UHGV virus genome: UHGV-0172325
Direction: 5' to 3' (one strand)
Length of the DNA stretch: 12,537 bases
Source: a virus
Both the position numbers and the translations under genes were made by a program. How positions within the stretch are numbered: position 1 is the stretch's first letter; each line of letters starts with the position of its first letter. This document shows, one piece after another, positions 493 to 7,001 of this stretch. Below the pieces are notes generated by a model. It saw only the letters and a list, made by a program, of their open reading frames with translations. It made no database searches and was not told the DNA's origin.

Positions 493-804
493 TTATTCGA
501 TGCGCACTCCTGGTATTTCGCCTTTTGATATTGCTAAGTCATAAATTTGCGCGGCACTATACCCATCTCGCATCCATGAATCTAAGGCGCGAATAGCCTC
601 GCTACGCTTTTTATCTTCTCTTTCATTTTTGATATCAACGAGGACATCAACGCAATTAAGGCATATGTGGATTTTGTCCTTACATTCGATCATGGCGGCT
701 TTACCATGATTTCCGCCACACAGTGAGCATAAATCTTCAGGGTCTGGCTGGTATTTCTGTAACGTTAAATGGTTGAATGTTGAACAGGCCATAATCATCT
801 CCAT
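493..804 (-). CDS. Hypothetical Cys-rich protein (103 aa), possible zinc-ribbon
   Basis: ORF with a CSLCGG ... CKDKIHICLNC cysteine cluster (CxxC ... CxxC). Same strand as the operon. Weak ribosome-binding site. Confidence 0.45.
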   Translation of the reverse strand: MEMIMACSTFNHLTLQKYQPDPEDLCSLCGGNHGKAAMIECKDKIHICLNCVDVLVDIKNEREDKKRSEAIRALDSWMRDGYSAAQIYDLAISKGEIPGVRIE

Positions 805-1174: not shown

Positions 1175-1456
1175 TTAGCAATTGATATTCACCTTTATCG
1201 CGTACACTTTTACCGGTTTATCGCCGAAGTGGGGATGTGTGATTGTCTTGATTTCATATCCGTCATACGGGACGTCAATTCTACGGCTGGAATCGTCGCG
1301 CTTCGGATATCCCTTTGTGATAATCAGGCGGTCATACTCCCGGAACATAATTCGCTTATTCCAGTAGTCATTACACAAGCGATACTCTTCCGTTTTCTCT
1401 CCAGACTTCATCTGGTCGAAATATTCACCGTTAACTGCCAGTTGAAGGTTAGCCAC
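1175..1456 (-). CDS. ASCH-domain (PUA-like) protein, 93 aa
   Basis: The N-terminal motif SGEKTEEYR fits the ASCH signature G-x-K-T-x-E-x-R; size is typical for the family. Overlaps the upstream gene's stop by 8 nt, indicating translational coupling. Confidence 0.55.
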   Translation of the reverse strand: MANLQLAVNGEYFDQMKSGEKTEEYRLCNDYWNKRIMFREYDRLIITKGYPKRDDSSRRIDVPYDGYEIKTITHPHFGDKPVKVYAIKVNINC

Positions 1457-2399
1457 GGTTAACCTCCTGCGGCGGTTCTGGTAGCGGCATCCAGTACAAG
1501 GCGTTCCCTAACCACGATAAAGTGCCGTCGCTCAACTCCACGTATTCCCCTTGTACCTGTCCTGCCATATACTCGCCGTGCTTTGAATAAATTAAAATCC
1601 AATCATCTTGAGCGGGCATTCGCTCACTACAGCTTATCCAACCATCCGGAGTTACCGGAGAGTTGCCGGGTTCTTTAATGTGCAAGCGAGGCTCACCATC
1701 TTTTGGCTCAGGCCACTGGCGCTCCATGTTGATCTTCAATTTATCTTCCATAGCAGCGGTAATTTCAGCATCGCTGATGCCAGCACGGCGCTGTGCATCC
1801 CACAACAGAAACTGCATATCAGCCCACTCGCTAAGATCGTCTGGTTCGGCTGCGGCTTCCAGTGCCTCTTTTGAGAGATGTTTCAGCGGGCCAACTGTAC
1901 CAACACAGCCAAACGTCTTATCTGACCATTCAGCATGGCGCTGCCGGATTAAATTGCGCAATTGAAGCGATGATCCGTTCTCCTCTGACAACTCTTCATG
2001 ATTACTTGCAGGTTCGACACCCTGAAGCATGGCGGCGCGGCAGGCATTCCAGCCTCTCACCTCTGCAATAGCGGCAACAGCATCGACCGCGTACATTTTA
2101 AGAGGGTTGGGCATTGGTTTTTCTTCAGGTACTACTGGCACTGGAGGGGCGGCGTATACTTCAATTGTCCCATTATCAATAGGCCATTCCCCATCCTTGA
2201 TGTAGTCACTTGTGCCATCGACCTGCTGTTCTGCAATGTGGAAAGCACCTATTGGTTTTGCTTCCAGTGATGCCAGTGCAATTTTTAATGCGGTAAGCAT
2301 GTTGTTTTGATCTTCATCGAGTCCGAACGGTATTTCATCCCGTGCTGACTCAATGCTGGTAATCGTGTTCTGTAACCATTCTTTGGTAAGAGTATTCAT
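1449..2399 (-). CDS. Prophage early protein, 316 aa; acidic; possible MazG-like dATP/dGTP pyrophosphohydrolase (DUF550-type) plus DUF551-type C-terminus
   Basis: Long ORF whose start sits 3 nt after the upstream stop. The central acidic helical segment (EALEAAAEPDDLSEWADMQFLLWDAQRRAG) and the Trp/Gly-rich C-terminus resemble the DUF550/DUF551 architecture common in enterobacterial prophages. Recalled from memory, not searched. Confidence 0.45.
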   Translation of the reverse strand: MNTLTKEWLQNTITSIESARDEIPFGLDEDQNNMLTALKIALASLEAKPIGAFHIAEQQVDGTSDYIKDGEWPIDNGTIEVYAAPPVPVVPEEKPMPNPLKMYAVDAVAAIAEVRGWNACRAAMLQGVEPASNHEELSEENGSSLQLRNLIRQRHAEWSDKTFGCVGTVGPLKHLSKEALEAAAEPDDLSEWADMQFLLWDAQRRAGISDAEITAAMEDKLKINMERQWPEPKDGEPRLHIKEPGNSPVTPDGWISCSERMPAQDDWILIYSKHGEYMAGQVQGEYVELSDGTLSWLGNALYWMPLPEPPQEVNRG

Positions 2400-2401
2400 A
2401 A

Positions 2402-2593
2402 CTATTTCACTTTAATCTCAATATTTCGCAGCTTTATGTCTACTGGTAGGTCTGACTTTCCTGTTAACGCTAATGCGAGATTTTCAGGAGTAATGAGAGC
2501 AGTTATTGTTTTCCCTATTGCCAGACGAATAATCATTCGTATCTCGCGATCGTCACATGCTCCCGGTCGAACAATTGATATTTGTCCGATCAT
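2402..2593 (-). CDS. Small hypothetical protein (63 aa)
   Basis: Start chosen at the internal Met MIGQISIV..., which has a strong SD (AAGGAGA, 5-nt spacer). The ATG sits 1 nt after the upstream stop (TGA-G-ATG). The 99-aa version in the ORF track lacks an SD. Confidence 0.45.
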   Translation of the reverse strand: MIGQISIVRPGACDDREIRMIIRLAIGKTITALITPENLALALTGKSDLPVDIKLRNIEIKVK

Positions 2594-2594
2594 C

Positions 2595-2786
2595 TCACTC
2601 TCCTTTAGTGCGCAAATGGTTTTTCCAGCGGTTTTGCGCCGCGCTGCCCTTATCTCGGACTCCCTCTCTGGCAATTCCAGAAAATGAAAACAACACCACA
2701 CGACGATTGCTAACTCTCAACCACTGGCTGGGATAGCAAAGTCTGTATACACGGGAAATAAGCATCTTAGCTTTACGGTTTTTCAT
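2595..2786 (-). CDS. Small basic hypothetical protein (63 aa), N-terminus MKNRKAK
   Basis: ORF in ATGA overlap with the upstream ORF stop. Shares an identical first 7 residues with the next ORF. Confidence 0.35.
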   Translation of the reverse strand: MKNRKAKMLISRVYRLCYPSQWLRVSNRRVVLFSFSGIAREGVRDKGSAAQNRWKNHLRTKGE

Positions 2787-2959
2787 CTTACTGCGTACCC
2801 TTTCTTCCGCCTGTTCTGTGACGCGGTGGGTTTATAGTTAAATGCGAATACCACCCTACCAAACATGCCGATCACCGCCCGTTTGTGATTGCTGATTGGT
2901 AGCTTCTCGTACCCCGTCGAACGCGATAAAAGAAGTAATTTTGCTTTACGGTTTTTCAT
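2783..2959 (-). CDS. Small basic hypothetical protein (58 aa), N-terminus MKNRKAK
   Basis: Internal Met of the 72-aa track ORF, with AGGAGA 8 nt upstream. Overlaps the Ea22-like gene's stop by 14 nt. Confidence 0.35.
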   Translation of the reverse strand: MKNRKAKLLLLSRSTGYEKLPISNHKRAVIGMFGRVVFAFNYKPTASQNRRKKGYAVR

Positions 2960-3863
2960 CGTTTTGTTCTCCTGCGTCTCCTTTGATGCGAATGCCAGCA
3001 AGCCAGTTTCTTATGCCGATATATTCAGCGTTCCTGAAACCGCTTTTTACATATATAAATGGCAAGCGAAGATTGTGACCATTGGCTGCCAGGTAGTCTT
3101 TACAACCCTGTTCGGTGAAACAGCAGGTAACGAATTCATCAATATCTTTCACAGCAACGCGCCGCCATTTTTCTGGTGGCTCTCGAAAGTTTTCGTGAAG
3201 TAGTTCGAGACGACGACTTTGGCGTTTATTGGCTTCATTGCCATCTTCATCAACCCAGACAATCCGGTCATAGTCATAATCAGCATCAACAACGATTTCG
3301 CGCTTTTGATACACACAAAACATGGGATCTGACGTTATTCGATTGTCCTGTGTTCGAATATTTTCACCGATGATGCCAAACGAATCTGGTGCAGATTTTG
3401 TCTGCATCTCTTCGATACGTTCAGCCATCGCAGCACACTCTTCAAAGTTGCTTAATGCTTTTCGCTCCCATTCGGCGCATTGTTTTTCCAGTTCTGCTAT
3501 GCGCTTACTTCCATCCGCGATTACTCCCTCGTAATATTCACGCTGTTCGTTGAGTTTTGATTTTGCTGCTTCAAGCTCAACGCGCAGCTTCCCTACCGTT
3601 AGCGCAATATCCTCGTTCTCCTGGTCGCGGAGTTTGATGTATTGCTGGTTCCTTTCCCGTTCATCCAGTAGTGCCAAAGCAACCTTTGGATTAAAGGCAG
3701 CAATAAATTCAGCGTTGTTTTTCAGAACGTGTTGCGCAATGGCCTGACTACTTAGTCGGACCTCATAACCACGTGCGCCACGGTGTGGTTTATATGAGTC
3801 CCAGTCTCCCCACGTTGCTTTCTCTGCCGCCTCACGCAGTGCCTGATAGTCAATCTTGCTCAC
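2946..3863 (-). CDS. Ea22-like coiled-coil prophage protein (about 305 aa from a GTG start)
   Basis: Long ORF with a central coiled-coil ([36 protein letters not shown]...). Start set at the in-frame GTG at 3863, preceded by AAGGAGG with a 6-nt spacer and in GTGA overlap with the upstream stop. The track start at 3884 is also GTG but has no SD. Confidence 0.55.
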
Positions 3864-4027
3864 TGGTTGCCTCCTTTGCGCCACATCGCATTCAGATATT
3901 TGTTTTGATTCACTGACGGAAAAGAATTTCTCTTAAGTAATTCCTCTCTCGATGGCATTGGCTTTACGCGTTGGCGAATAATCATTTCTGCCGGAAGAAT
4001 GCCGGGATTGTATGCAAGTCCTCTCAT
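3860..4027 (-). CDS. Small hypothetical protein (55 aa)
   Basis: Internal Met (MRGLAYNPG...) preceded by GAGGAA with a 6-nt spacer. Its stop overlaps the Ea22-like GTG start. A longer version overlaps the upstream gene in another frame. Confidence 0.4.
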
Positions 4028-4037
4028 GGTAAATTCC

Positions 4038-4331
4038 TCAGTCATTACTGATAGCGCCATAGCGTGAGCGGTAATTACGCAGGCGCGGGTCAATTTCATG
4101 GAAGTGGGTATATGTGGCTTTGCGGAATGGTCGGATTGATGTCTGGTAAATTCGCTCGCGTTCTTCTTTCTCTGCAAGCCATATACAATTGCGAAATTCC
4201 TTTTCCTCTTTCGTTTCCTGTGGTAGCGACATTATCCGGTCGTAGTTTTTCCTGAATTTATCCAGCACCTCCGATACGGAATTGCCGGAACAGCGGCGCG
4301 CGTCGTCCGCACCATACAGAGGCGCTGGCAT
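4038..4331 (-). CDS. Hypothetical protein (97 aa)
   Basis: ORF with a strong SD (AGGAG, 7-nt spacer), starting 13 nt after the ssb stop. Confidence 0.5.
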
Positions 4332-4344
4332 GATTTTCTCCTGA

Positions 4345-4860
4345 TTAAATTGCGTGAATAGCGTGACGAGGGAAGGGGAGAGTTACTGGTGCAAAGGGTA
4401 TATCGTCGTCAAAATCCATAGGTGGTTCGCTGTGATTCCCATGCTGCTTAGATTGCTGTCTTTGTTGCTGACCGTTATTTCGCTGAGGTGAAGACTGTTC
4501 ATTGCCTCCTTGCTTTCCACCAAGCATTTGCATGGTTCCACCAACGCCTACGATAACTTCGGTAGTGAACCGATCCTGTCCGCTTTGATCCTGCCATTTT
4601 CTTGTCCGCAATTTGCCTTCAAGATAAACCTCTGAGCCTTTTCGCAGATATTCGCTGGCAATTTCTGCCAGTTTCCCGCTCATTACCACACGGTGCCACT
4701 CCGTCTGCTCCTTTTGCTCTCCAGTTTGCTTATCACGCCATTGTTCTGACGTAGCAACTGTAAGGTTTGCAAATGCCGTTCCTGATGGTGAATATCTGAT
4801 TTCTGGATCATGACCAAGGCGACCAATAATGATCACCTTATTTACGCCTCTGCTTGCCAT
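4345..4860 (-). CDS. ssb: Single-stranded DNA-binding protein (SSB) with a 15-aa extension beyond the canonical DDDIPF tip
   Basis: N-terminal OB-fold region closely matches E. coli SSB (MASRGVNKV..., [45 protein letters not shown]), followed by a Gly/Gln-rich linker and [11 protein letters not shown]. The ORF then continues [15 protein letters not shown] before the stop. Confidence 0.9.
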
Positions 4861-5568
4861 TTATGCCGCCTGTTTTAGCTCGTTAACTCTGATGTTCATT
4901 ACCTGAACGCATTTAGCCTGCGCCTCCTCGTTTCCAGCCATTAATTGCCAGTCACGCTGATAACGCTCGATGAGTTTTTTCTTGTCAGTTTCTGTTGACG
5001 CATAATCGCTGAAGTCTTTCAGGATTTGTTCGCAGTCAACCGATGGAGATTTCTGGTTGGTATTTTCTGGTGGTGATTTGTTATCTGATACTGGCATTGC
5101 CCAGCCCGGCAGCGATGGGGGGGACCAGTAAAATCCTGTTCCATCCTTCAGTTTTGCCCTGTGCCACCCCTGCTTTTTATCGAGAGATGTTTGTGCGAAA
5201 CCTTCCTCAAGGTTATACAGATACCGACCGATTCCCCACTGAACGGCAGCGCGCTTCATTGCACCGGAACGACCGCCTTTGACGGCTTCTACCTGCGTGT
5301 TTTCAGCAGCATCCCATTTGGTTACCCATTCGGAATCAATCTTTATTGATATGCCGCATTCAACGCCGCCGTTGTTGGGAATATCGCGGTATTCATTGCG
5401 CCATCCTGCTTTGCCGCAAACATCGTCCAGGCGTTTCATGATTGCCCGGTTCGTGACATAAGCCAGCACCATAGCCCACACTTTTCCATCGCGTGTTTTA
5501 CCGCTTTGCTGTATTCGCCATTCGATATCTTCAGGGCTGAATGGCTCATCGAATTTGTTCAAATCCAT
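4861..5568 (-). CDS. Rad52/22-family ssDNA-annealing protein (phage recombinase, Sak-like)
   Basis: 235-aa ORF directly upstream of ssb (its stop TAA abuts the ssb ATG). The N-terminal region with KRAAVQWGIGRYLY resembles Rad52-type annealing proteins. Sits where bet/erf occurs in lambdoid phages. Confidence 0.55.
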   Translation of the reverse strand: MDLNKFDEPFSPEDIEWRIQQSGKTRDGKVWAMVLAYVTNRAIMKRLDDVCGKAGWRNEYRDIPNNGGVECGISIKIDSEWVTKWDAAENTQVEAVKGGRSGAMKRAAVQWGIGRYLYNLEEGFAQTSLDKKQGWHRAKLKDGTGFYWSPPSLPGWAMPVSDNKSPPENTNQKSPSVDCEQILKDFSDYASTETDKKKLIERYQRDWQLMAGNEEAQAKCVQVMNIRVNELKQAA

Positions 5569-5737: not shown

Positions 5738-5959
5738 CAAGTGACATGAATATCTCCTTCGTTACCGATTAATTCTTTCATCTGACGAATGAATTCTTCG
5801 TCTGACCAGTTATCTGTAAAACTCATTTCCTGCGATACCACGGAAGGTTGATAGCTGATTTCATCGCTTTATTTGCTTCAAGCCACATTTTTGAATCACC
5901 AATAAATCTGGCTATTACTGCTTTGTTTTGTGCCGCACGAAGCATCTGGTGATTAATGG

Positions 5960-6094
5960 CTATTTCATTGCGCATAACGCCTCCAGTTGTTTCTTTGCTG
6001 CTCTGATTAATTGTTTAACTCGGCGTGATAATTCAGATTCGTGCGGGTAGAAAGCGGACATGACGCCGCTACCCGCGAGCTGAAAGTGCATCAT
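5960..6094 (-). CDS. cIII-like small protein (44 aa), putative FtsH-inhibitor analogue
   Basis: Internal Met pair with AGGAG 6 nt upstream. The segment HESELSRRVKQLIRAAKKQL aligns with the lambda CIII core SESLLERITRKLRDGWKRL as recalled from memory. Position between N and the recombination genes matches lambda cIII. Confidence 0.45.
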   Translation of the reverse strand: MMHFQLAGSGVMSAFYPHESELSRRVKQLIRAAKKQLEALCAMK

Positions 6095-6157
6095 GGGTAA
6101 CTCCTTATATTTGATTGCATAACGAAAACGCCTCGAGTGAAGCGTTATTGGTATGCA

Positions 6158-6184
6158 TATAAAAAAGCCCTCACACTGGAGGGC
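6158..6184 (-). terminator. Intrinsic terminator, tL1-like (GCCCUC stem, 6-nt loop, U-run on the leftward transcript)
   Basis: Plus strand reads AAAAAA-GCCCTC-ACACTG-GAGGGC; on the minus-strand RNA the hairpin is followed by UUUUUUAUAU. Lies upstream of the cIII-like gene. Confidence 0.6.
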
Positions 6185-6320
6185 AAAGAAGATTTCCAAT
6201 AATCAGAACAAGTCGGCTCCTGTTTAGTTAAGAGCGACATTGCTCCGTGTATTCACTCGTTGGAATGAATACACAGTGCAGTGTTTATTCTGTTATTTAT
6301 GCCAAAAATAAAGGCCACCA

Positions 6321-6630: not shown

Positions 6631-6903
6631 TCATCTTGCTGTCAGTTGTTTGGATTTACGGTAGCCTGCCGCGTAAAGAGCTACATTTGGAAGACAAGTT
6701 GAGCCTTCATATTTTCTGGTCAACGTTGTCAGTGTTATTACTTCTGCTCTCATTGCTGGTTTGCGTTTGCATTGTAAGACCACTCGTGATGGGGTTGGCC
6801 TGTGTAGTTTGTCGGAGCTAATCGCCTCCTGACTTTGCAGGTTTGCGCGACGAGCTCTACGGCGAGAAGCTGCGGTGCCTTTAAATTCTGTTTTTCTGGA
6901 CAT
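6631..6903 (-). CDS. N-like transcription antiterminator (90 aa)
   Basis: Start at the internal Met (6903) with GGAGG 5 nt upstream. The N-terminal arginine-rich motif GTAASRRRARRANL resembles the lambda/P22 N motif. The C-terminus LPNVALYAAGYRKSKQLTAR resembles P22 gp24 as recalled. Lies just downstream of pL and nutL. Confidence 0.6.
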   Translation of the reverse strand: MSRKTEFKGTAASRRRARRANLQSQEAISSDKLHRPTPSRVVLQCKRKPAMRAEVITLTTLTRKYEGSTCLPNVALYAAGYRKSKQLTAR

Positions 6904-7001
6904 AGATTCCTCCCGAATAAACTTTGGCGATGCAATCTCGAAGCTCCTCCTGAGACGGTTGCTTCGGCATTGCATCCCACAGCTTATGTGGTTGGGTGAT
7001 C

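What the first reader, a model, noticed from the sequence alone, without database searches (positions are those of the whole stretch)
1175..2399. ASCH-domain protein coupled to a putative MazG-like/DUF551 protein in the early-left operon
The 93-aa ORF carries the ASCH signature GEKTEEYR; ASCH domains are PUA-like RNA- or nucleotide-binding modules. It overlaps the end of a 316-aa acidic protein whose central region resembles MazG-type nucleotide pyrophosphohydrolase (DUF550) segments and whose C-terminus resembles DUF551, from memory. Early-expressed nucleotide- or RNA-directed enzymes in phages are candidates for countering host nucleotide-signalling defences or altering nucleotide pools. That is speculative here.
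Basis: inference. Interest (0 to 1): 0.45.

Follow-up and report, generated by a model that had tools for sequence, protein, structure and literature searches.

The report
Phage EaA-type pyrophosphohydrolase plus small ASCH protein
Two ordinary, already-annotated accessory genes of a P22/HK022-like temperate phage, a MazG-like nucleotide pyrophosphohydrolase fused to DUF551 and a tiny ASCH-fold protein, sit side by side because of phage gene shuffling, not because they form a dedicated pair.

Summary
The 316-aa protein (1449-2399, minus strand) matches Pfam DUF550/dATP-dGTP pyrophosphohydrolase (E 4e-43) and DUF551 (E 1.7e-11). It is a mosaic relative of P22 EaA. Its DUF550 domain is homologous to the solved S-2L MazZ enzyme and keeps every metal-binding and transition-state residue, so it is probably an active purine (d)NTP pyrophosphohydrolase.

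The genes overlap by 8 nt, with a GGAGG site ahead of the GTG start. The pairing is not conserved. Only 11 of 80 ASCH loci have DUF550 upstream, and only 1 of 80 DUF550 loci has ASCH nearby. The junction sequence travels with the ASCH gene onto unrelated upstream genes.

RefSeq already gives homologues these names, and pieces of the region occur in 58% of complete E. coli genomes. The substrates and the biological role remain untested. The anti-defence idea is neither supported nor excluded. This is ordinary and of low interest.

The parts
1449..2399 (-). 316-aa EaA-type mosaic protein (acidic, pI 4.49): N-terminal helical hairpin, low-confidence linker modules, DUF550, DUF551
2262..2399 (-). 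N-terminal two-helix segment (aa 1-46) ending in the near-invariant IALASLEA linker. Function unknown; only PHROG families of unknown function match.
   Evidence: helices 6-22 and 29-46, pLDDT about 70-83
1662..1949 (-). DUF550 / dATP-dGTP pyrophosphohydrolase domain (aa 151-246), MazG/MazZ-like
   Evidence: Pfam PF04447 E 4e-43, 146 bits. Profile hit to PDB 7ody MazZ, E 3e-7. 31% identical to the SH-Ab 15497 DUF550 domain.
1818..1868 (-). Metal-binding motif E178-x2-E181 ... E191-x2-D194. These are the equivalents of MazZ E35, E38, E50 and D53.
1713..1742 (-). K220-x3-N224-x2-R227-x-W229 motif. These are the equivalents of MazZ K76, N80, R83 (transition state) and W85.
1467..1643 (-). DUF551 domain (aa 253-311): conserved ends (PVTPDGWISCSERMP ... 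WMPLPEPP) around a variable beta-rich core
   Evidence: Pfam PF04448 E 1.7e-11. Alignment. Predicted beta strands. Weak Tudor/Sm-like fold hints.
1449..1467 (-). Junction module: GGAGG Shine-Dalgarno site (1463-1467), 6-nt spacer, GTG start (1454-1456), and 8-nt overlap with the TAA stop of the upstream ORF (1449-1451). It encodes the QEVNRG tail.
   Evidence: The same 8-nt overlap occurs in 56 of 80 related loci, and the tail is retained on unrelated upstream ORFs.
1175..1456 (-). 93-aa stand-alone ASCH/PUA-like protein (basic, pI 8.52), phrog_625
1379..1402 (-). GxKxxExR pocket motif (G19, K21, E24, R26) in the alpha1-beta2 region

Best explanation
These are two independent accessory genes in the non-essential 'ea' stretch (between abc2 and xis) of the leftward early operon of a P22/HK022-like lambdoid phage. 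The 316-aa protein is a shuffled version of P22 EaA. Its central DUF550 domain is a MazG/MazZ-type all-alpha nucleoside-triphosphate pyrophosphohydrolase with a complete catalytic site. Most likely it cleaves a purine nucleoside triphosphate (dGTP/GTP, possibly dATP) to the monophosphate plus pyrophosphate early in infection. The N-terminal helices and the C-terminal DUF551 beta-domain are portable modules of unknown role, presumably for oligomerisation or targeting. The 93-aa protein is a minimal ASCH (PUA-like) domain whose K21/E24/R26 pocket most likely binds, or hydrolytically trims, a free or flipped-out (modified) nucleobase. The two are co-transcribed and translationally coupled. That coupling belongs to the ASCH gene's own start module, which recombines onto many different upstream genes, so the pair is a product of lambdoid mosaicism rather than a two-part system. 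Shown here: the ORFs, the domains, the conserved catalytic and pocket residues, the fold of the small protein, the junction anatomy, and the lack of conserved pairing. Inferred: enzymatic activity, substrates, timing of expression and biological role.
Against: No biochemical data exist for any lambdoid EaA or for this ASCH family. The AlphaFold model of the 316-aa protein is poor (pLDDT 52.5), so the four-helix-bundle fold of the DUF550 domain is not confirmed structurally. The 93-aa protein scores below the Pfam ASCH gathering threshold (13.4 against 21.2 bits). Only 5 of 98 family members reach E<=0.01, and sequence profiles find no ASCH structure in the PDB. The characterised DUF550/MazZ enzymes work in 2-aminoadenine (Z-genome) phages alongside PurZ. 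That context is absent here, so the physiological substrate could differ. The co-occurrence samples cover only close relatives (76-99% identity) in IMG/VR.
Confidence: 0.6

Rival explanations
1. The DUF550 domain is an anti-defence enzyme that removes a guanine-nucleotide alarmone or signal, for example (p)ppGpp. The phage MazG-like protein Atd1 does this, blunting TIR/abortive-infection toxicity and stringent-response shutdown.
For: Atd1 is a phage MazG-like pyrophosphatase that hydrolyses ppGpp and protects against TIR-STING and retron-TIR (bioRxiv 10.1101/2022.06.09.495361). The window domain has an intact catalytic site and keeps D201, the residue equivalent to the guanine-contacting D60 of MazZ. 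It lies in the early operon next to a known anti-RecBCD gene, abc2.
Against: The closest characterised relatives (MazZ, SH-Ab 15497 DUF550) act on dGTP/GTP/dATP. No similarity to Atd1 was tested here because no sequence was available. No co-occurring defence or anti-defence marker was found, and PADLOC is negative.
Confidence: 0.15
2. The DUF550 domain is a house-cleaning enzyme that removes non-canonical or damaged purine dNTPs (as cellular MazG and RS21-C6-type enzymes do), protecting phage replication fidelity.
For: It belongs to the all-alpha NTP pyrophosphohydrolase superfamily. Sanitising roles for such enzymes are established knowledge. The domain is widespread in phages with ordinary DNA, including P22, Klebsiella weberviruses and mycobacteriophages.
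Against: No specificity information is available. The residues aligned to the MazZ guanine pocket are only partly conserved. The variable fusions to DUF551 and other modules are not typical of housekeeping sanitising enzymes.
Confidence: 0.15
3. The ASCH and MazG-like proteins form a dedicated sensor-effector pair, with a PUA-like base sensor controlling a nucleotide-hydrolysing effector. This would parallel bacterial PUA-Calcineurin/MazG-HAD defence modules.
For: The genes have an 8-nt overlap and a shared transcript. PUA-like domains combined with MazG-like phosphoesterases occur in defence systems (bioRxiv 10.64898/2026.01.15.699771).
Against: The adjacency is rare in both directions: 11 of 80 and 1 of 80. 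The overlap module rides with ASCH onto unrelated genes. P22 eaA has no ASCH neighbour. There are no PADLOC hits. The location in the repressed early operon argues against a lysogen-expressed defence.
Confidence: 0.05
4. The 93-aa protein is an N4-acylcytidine (ac4C) amidohydrolase like E. coli YqfB or human EOLA1, feeding pyrimidine salvage during infection.
Against: The YqfB nucleophile Thr24 is replaced by Glu. Position 7 is Ala, whereas the TRIP4/EOLA1 clade is reported to have Ser/Thr there. Murine EOLA1 was reported inactive in another study cited. The equivalent of YqfB Glu74 could not be located.
Confidence: 0.15

Closest known systems
Salmonella phage P22 EaA (P22gp27, 317 aa)
   Same: Same Pfam pair, DUF550 + DUF551. 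Same position in the ea region between abc2 and xis. The DUF550 segment is 77% identical, and the IALASL and GNSPV.P.GWISCSERMP linkers are shared.
   Different: The domains are spaced differently (DUF550 at aa 83-179 in P22 against 151-246 here). The N-terminal and inter-domain modules are unrelated. In P22, eaA is followed by eaG after a gap, not by an overlapping ASCH gene.
Cyanophage S-2L MazZ (PDB 7ODY), a MazG-like (d)GTP pyrophosphohydrolase
   Same: Homologous at profile level (E 3e-7). It shares the ExxE...ExxD metal ligands, the K..N..R.W motif and the Asp that contacts guanine N2.
   Different: MazZ is a 105-aa stand-alone enzyme in a purZ/datZ cluster that makes 2-aminoadenine DNA. 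Here the domain is embedded in a 316-aa mosaic protein of a phage type with ordinary DNA, and no purZ or datZ lies nearby.
Acinetobacter phage SH-Ab 15497 DUF5664-DUF550 protein (dATP/dGTP pyrophosphohydrolase, the source of the Pfam name)
   Same: The DUF550 domain carries the same motifs: 39 bits to the A4 profile and 31% identity over 83 aa. Activity is described in PMC12884076 and PMC8342488.
   Different: It is fused to DUF5664 at the N-terminus, not to DUF551. It lies immediately downstream of PurZ and upstream of an HD phosphohydrolase.
Stand-alone ASCH proteins: E. faecalis 3IUW, P. horikoshii PH0355 (2Z0T), E. coli YqfB, human EOLA1
   Different: Sequence similarity is below family thresholds. 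This protein has Glu24 where YqfB has Thr24, and Ala7 where the TRIP4/EOLA1 clade is reported to have Ser/Thr. It is shorter (93 aa) and has its own conserved ITHPHFG motif.
DUF551 carriers: E. coli CPS-53 YfdS and the Stx-phage Ea22 V2 variant
   Same: The same portable C-terminal DUF551 module, found on mosaic early-region proteins of lambdoid phages.
   Different: The partner domains differ (the Ea22 coiled coil, or none). The only phenotypes reported are indirect: oxidative-stress sensitivity, and multicopy suppression of over-initiation.

Membership tests
Pfam PF04447 (DUF550 / dATP-dGTP_PPHyd) | HMM score above the gathering threshold (23 bits) | tested here: met
   146 bits, E 4e-43, aa 151-246 covering profile positions 1-96 of 97
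MazG-like all-alpha NTP pyrophosphohydrolase superfamily | Detectable homology to a solved member | tested here: met
   A profile of 8 DUF550 domains hits 7ody (S-2L MazZ) at E 3e-7, 33.5 bits
MazG-like all-alpha NTP pyrophosphohydrolase superfamily | Acidic metal-binding motif ExxE ... ExxD, plus the transition-state Arg | tested here: met
   E178, E181, E191, D194 and R227 are invariant in A4 and align to MazZ E35, E38, E50, D53 and R83
MazG-like all-alpha NTP pyrophosphohydrolase superfamily | Four-helix-bundle fold | tested here: inconclusive
   The AlphaFold model predicts four helices (142-163, 177-182, 189-205, 210-226) but with pLDDT 30-60. Foldseek on the model gives nothing significant.
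MazG-like all-alpha NTP pyrophosphohydrolase superfamily | NTP to NMP + PPi activity | not testable with these tools
   Requires an enzyme assay
Z-genome (PurZ) nucleotide-pool module (MazZ/DUF550 with PurZ and DatZ) | Neighbouring purZ and datZ genes | tested here: not met
   No such ORFs occur in the 12.5-kb window; all neighbours are lambdoid early genes. In SH-Ab 15497 the DUF550 gene sits between PurZ and an HD hydrolase.
Pfam PF04448 (DUF551) | HMM score above the gathering threshold (22 bits) | tested here: met
   45.2 bits, E 1.7e-11, aa 253-311
P22 EaA family | DUF550 + DUF551 in one protein, encoded in the ea region between abc2 and xis | tested here: met
Pfam PF04266 (ASCH) | HMM score above the gathering threshold (21.2 bits) | tested here: not met
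   13.4 bits, E 0.13, with only aa 7-28 aligned. 5 of 98 diverse relatives reach E<=0.01, best 1.3e-4.
ASCH superfamily (PUA-like fold) | GxKxxExR motif in the alpha1-beta2 cavity region | tested here: met
   G19-E-K21-T-E-E24-Y-R26. K21 is invariant and G19, E24 and R26 are at least 90% conserved in 98 representatives. The motif lies between helix 10-18 and strand 23-27 of the model. The motif definition is from PMC6803910.
ASCH superfamily (PUA-like fold) | Beta-barrel fold matching solved ASCH domains | tested here: met
YqfB-clade N4-acetylcytidine amidohydrolases | Catalytic Lys21 / Thr24 / Glu74 (with Arg26) | tested here: not met
   The motif aligns position for position, but residue 24 is Glu, not Thr (residue roles from PMC9599836). 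No equivalent of Glu74 was identified.
TRIP4/EOLA1-like ASCH clade | K21 / E24 / R26 with a conserved Ser/Thr at position 7 | tested here: inconclusive
   K21, E24 and R26 are present. Position 7 is Ala, but equivalence of position 7 rests on numbering only. The clade description is from a bioRxiv preprint.
Dedicated ASCH + MazG-like two-gene system | Conserved adjacency of the two genes across relatives | tested here: not met
   11 of 80 ASCH loci have DUF550 upstream. 1 of 80 DUF550 loci has ASCH within 3 kb.
Known anti-phage defence systems (PADLOC-DB) | Match to any PADLOC model | tested here: not met
   No hits at E<=0.01 for either protein or for four neighbours

The most novel reading that the evidence does not exclude
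In temperate phages with ordinary DNA, EaA-type DUF550 enzymes would be early-expressed counter-defence or lifestyle enzymes. They would destroy a guanine-nucleotide signal such as (p)ppGpp or a nucleotide-derived immune messenger. The minimal ASCH protein would bind or hydrolyse a modified nucleotide danger signal, for example the methylated dNMP sensed by PUA-type defence modules. DUF551 would act as an exchangeable targeting module.
Probability: 0.1. Interest if true: 0.6.

Novelty: already known. Interest (0 to 1): 0.2.

Why it matters
As it stands this matters little. Both genes belong to abundant families that carry domain-level names; RefSeq calls the homologues 'ASCH domain-containing protein' and 'dATP/dGTP pyrophosphohydrolase domain-containing protein'. 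Pieces of the region occur in 3128 of 5426 complete E. coli genomes. What this analysis adds is threefold. The EaA DUF550 domain of lambdoid phages retains every catalytic residue of the characterised MazZ/DUF550 enzymes even though these phages do not make Z-DNA, so it probably has a different, still unknown physiological substrate or purpose. The apparent gene pair is a mosaic accident. The small ASCH family is a distinct, very widespread group of phage proteins with an intact pocket motif. Because these genes are so common in E. coli and Salmonella prophages, including Stx phages, a simple biochemical assignment would annotate thousands of genes. No new principle is in view, however.

Tried and rejected
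- **AlphaFold on the full 316-aa protein.** A 43-sequence alignment gave pLDDT 52.5. Foldseek on that model gave no significant hit, only weak Tudor/Sm-like matches for the DUF551 part. There is therefore no structural test of DUF550, DUF551 or the N-terminus.
- **Sequence searches of the ASCH family against the PDB.** The A1 and A2 profiles found nothing meaningful: a weak 3iuw match at E 0.3 and spurious eS1 hits.
- **hhalign of the family against E. coli YqfB.** Only the 16-residue motif aligned (E 0.14).
- **NCBIfam.** No hits for either protein.
- **PADLOC.** No hits.
- **Pfam on ten long family members carrying extra sequence.** No partner domains were found. Several long 'fusions' in the representative set look like read-through gene calls.
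- **Single-sequence PDB search with the 316-aa protein.** Only chance hits.
- **The search for related loci with the diverse ASCH alignment.** It failed for lack of a conserved stretch, so the neighbourhood analysis is limited to close relatives.
- **A lysogen-expressed defence role.** Considered and set aside, because the genes lie deep in the leftward early operon with no promoter-like site upstream.
- **A Z-genome role.** Considered and set aside, because no purZ or datZ context is present.

Full report
**Context.** The 12.5-kb window is the immunity and early region of a P22/HK022-like lambdoid phage or prophage. On the minus strand, in order, lie:
- a CI-type repressor (8666-9367);
- two ORFs of unknown function (7336-8381);
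- an N-like antiterminator (6631-6975), cIII (5960-6199) and kil (5823-5975);
- erf (4861-5568), ssb (4345-4860) and abc2 anti-RecBCD (4038-4331);
- an Ead/Ea22-like protein (2946-3884);
- a small ORF, then the two ORFs of the finding, two more small ORFs, and an excisionase-like gene (184-384).

Cro, cII-like, replication and DnaB-like helicase genes run rightward. Megablast finds patchy 88-97% matches to HK022, Sf6, CUS-3, Stx phages and others. No record covers 80% of the left 4.4 kb, which is the usual lambdoid mosaic. No sigma-70-like promoter is predicted between 1456 and 4400 on the minus strand.

**Observation.** Both ORFs exist at the stated coordinates.
- The upstream ORF ends ...CAGGAGGTTAACCGTGGCTAA. 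The GTG at 1454-1456 starts the 93-aa ORF.
- A perfect GGAGG (1463-1467) lies 6 nt upstream of that GTG, and the ORFs overlap by 8 nt.
- The motif GEKTEEYR is residues 19-26 of the 93-aa ORF.
- The 316-aa protein is acidic (pI 4.49) and the small one is basic (pI 8.52).
- The small ORF is under purifying selection: median dN/dS is 0.098 over 65 distinct alleles.
- It has 807 representative relatives at E<=1e-3 in a 1.8-billion-protein library.
- The 316-aa protein has an identical database copy and thousands of relatives.

**The 316-aa protein.** Pfam gives PF04447 (DUF550, now named dATP/dGTP pyrophosphohydrolase) at aa 151-246 (E 4e-43) and PF04448 (DUF551) at aa 253-311 (E 1.7e-11). P22 EaA has the same domain pair and lies in the same ea region. 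Its DUF550 segment is 77% identical, so this is an EaA-type protein.

An alignment of 43 relatives shows modular shuffling:
- a variable N-terminal helical segment ending in a near-invariant IALASLEA;
- optional middle modules ending in GWNACRAAML;
- an almost invariant DUF550 block;
- a DUF551 block with conserved ends (PVTPDGWISCSERMP ... WMPLPEPP) and a hypervariable core.

Some relatives lack DUF550 and others lack DUF551.

**Is DUF550 MazG-like and catalytically intact?** I collected eight diverse DUF550 domains: this one, P22, and phages of Klebsiella, Mycobacterium, Rhodococcus, Burkholderia, Pseudomonas and Flavobacterium (29-74% identity). The profile built from them hits one solved structure significantly. 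That structure is 7ody, the MazG-like (d)GTP pyrophosphohydrolase MazZ of cyanophage S-2L (E 3e-7).

The chain numbering of 7ody is offset by +6 from the paper. With that offset, the invariant window residues map onto MazZ as follows:

| Window residue | MazZ residue | Role in MazZ (PMC8342488) |
|---|---|---|
| E178, E181, E191, D194 | E35, E38, E50, D53 | the four conserved Mn/Mg ligands |
| R227 | R83 | transition state |
| K220, N224, W229 | K76, N80, W85 | pocket residues |
| D201 | D60 | contacts the guanine 2-amino group |

The biochemically characterised SH-Ab 15497 protein is the 385-aa ORF between PurZ and an HD hydrolase. It matches the same profile (39 bits), shows the same motifs, and is 31% identical to the window domain. 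Its dATP/dGTP pyrophosphohydrolase activity is reported in the literature.

The fold itself could not be confirmed. The AlphaFold model of the whole protein is poor (pLDDT 52.5), although it predicts four helices across the domain. Nothing in the window resembles purZ or datZ, so the Z-DNA role of the characterised enzymes does not apply here.

**DUF551 and the N-terminus.** DUF551 is a portable module also found on YfdS of prophage CPS-53 and on one Stx-phage Ea22 variant. Its function is unknown. The model predicts five short beta strands (pLDDT 64-79). It gives only weak matches to Tudor and Sm/Hfq-type barrels (probability up to 0.94, E about 0.3), which I treat as a lead only. The N-terminal 135 residues match only PHROG families of unknown function.

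**The 93-aa protein.**
- *Sequence.* The protein does not reach the Pfam ASCH threshold (13.4 against 21.2 bits, with only residues 7-28 aligned). Of 98 diverse relatives, 5 match ASCH and 4 match the related DUF3850 at E<=0.01. Sequence profiles find no ASCH structure in the PDB.
- *Motif.* G19-x-K21-x-x-E24-x-R26 is the ASCH-specific GxKxxExR cavity motif (PMC6803910). It lies in the expected alpha1-beta2 position and is conserved across the family: K21 is invariant and G19, E24 and R26 are at least 90% conserved.

I conclude that it is an ASCH/PUA-like domain from a distinct, divergent phage family (phrog_625). NCBI already names the homologues 'ASCH domain-containing protein'.

It is not a YqfB-type amidohydrolase by the published triad, because the nucleophile Thr24 is Glu here. 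K21/E24/R26 is the pattern of the TRIP4/EOLA1-like clade. One recent preprint reports human EOLA1, a member of that clade, as a free-ac4C deacetylase, and links prokaryotic members to modified-base systems. That clade is said to have Ser/Thr at position 7, where this protein has Ala. A pocket that binds or trims a (modified) base is the most reasonable inference, with modest confidence.

**Are the two genes a functional pair?** No.
- In 80 IMG/VR loci encoding close relatives of the ASCH protein (90-98% identity), 56 keep the 8-nt overlap. The upstream ORF contains DUF551 in 35, DUF550 in only 11, and unrelated sequences in 45.
- Several unrelated upstream ORFs still end in ...QEVNRG or ...EEGRG. 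The last few codons, the Shine-Dalgarno site and the overlap therefore belong to the ASCH gene's own start module, and recombination joins it to whatever lies upstream.
- In the reverse direction, among 80 loci with close DUF550 relatives (76-99% identity, 74 of them with at least 1.5 kb of downstream sequence), only one carries an ASCH gene within 3 kb.
- P22 eaA is followed by eaG, not by ASCH.
- In annotated phages the two families have different distributions. DUF550 is found in 552 records, 365 of them Klebsiella phages. ASCH is found in 333 records, mostly Salmonella, E. coli and Stx phages.
- In other phages the ASCH gene precedes a primase, or sits in unrelated early clusters.

**Comparison with what is known, and novelty.** Pieces of this 1.35-kb region occur in 3128 of 5426 complete E. 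coli genomes, with a median of two places per genome. RefSeq annotates them as 'dATP/dGTP pyrophosphohydrolase domain-containing protein', 'DUF551 domain-containing protein' and 'ASCH domain-containing protein'. The finding is therefore a correct re-discovery of existing annotation.

No experimental function is known for lambdoid EaA proteins or for this ASCH family. A search of the held open-access library for 'EaA' with 'P22' and 'phage' returned four papers, which I did not read; their titles concern phage or Salmonella genomics, host specificity and the Gifsy-1 RNA-repair operon. The anti-defence idea has a literature precedent in Atd1, a phage MazG-like enzyme that degrades (p)ppGpp. PUA-like plus MazG-like combinations also exist in bacterial defence modules. 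Nothing in this locus specifically points that way, and PADLOC is negative.

**Verdict.** The domain interpretation is largely right. The functional coupling is not supported, and the biological role is untested. The finding is ordinary. Interest is 0.2.

Noticed in passing
window 7336-7986 (-) and 7974-8381 (-): Two ORFs of unknown function lie between the cI repressor and the N-like gene. One is 216 aa (phrog_5820) with a hydrophobic C-terminal stretch; the other is 135 aa (phrog_26809). This is the slot that rexAB or sieB occupy in other lambdoid phages, so they are candidates for lysogen-expressed exclusion or defence genes.
   Followed up: no
window 1449-1467; loci L009, L018, L021, L053, L054, L056 and others: The short tail QEVNRG (or EEGRG), together with the GGAGG site and the 8-nt overlap, travels with the ASCH gene onto unrelated upstream ORFs. 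It acts as a conserved module-boundary linker, so the C-terminus of the upstream protein is donated by the downstream gene's start region.
   Followed up: partly
L089:3001-4380 (Acidovorax phage Alfacinha3 gp49): A relative of the 93-aa ASCH protein (47% identity, aa 1-89) is fused to a PAPS-reductase domain (PF01507, E 6.9e-27). The gene lies about 1.5 kb downstream of a cytosine methyltransferase gene. This hints at a link between this ASCH family and nucleic-acid modification chemistry.
   Followed up: partly
window 1467-1643 (DUF551, aa 253-311): The moderately confident part of the AlphaFold model (five short beta strands) gives weak Foldseek matches to Tudor domains (PHF19, probability 0.94, E 0.29) and to Sm/Hfq folds. 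DUF551 may be a small SH3-like barrel, but the evidence is weak.
   Followed up: partly
window 1449-2399 and alignment A3: Near-invariant short linkers (IALASLEA, GWNACRAAML, GNSPVTPDGWISCSERMP, WMPLPEPP) separate modules that are swapped, deleted or duplicated among EaA relatives. The DUF551 core is hypervariable between conserved ends.
   Followed up: partly
window 493-804 (-): A 103-aa ORF (phrog_3680, E 3e-69) has a weak ClpX-type C4 zinc-finger match (E 0.015). It is followed by a terminator-like hairpin at 433-452 on the minus strand.
   Followed up: no
window 2402-2701 (-): The listed 99-aa GTG ORF is probably a 63-aa protein starting at the ATG at 2590-2592, which is preceded by GGAG. 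phrog_1222 matches residues 37-99 over its full 63-position length. It ends 2 nt before the start of the 316-aa ORF.
   Followed up: partly
window 2946-3884 (-): An Ead/Ea22-like protein has the Pfam Ead_Ea22 domain at its N-terminus (E 5.5e-37) and a C-terminal part matching phrog_3205. It is another mosaic early protein of the same kind as the EaA relative.
   Followed up: no
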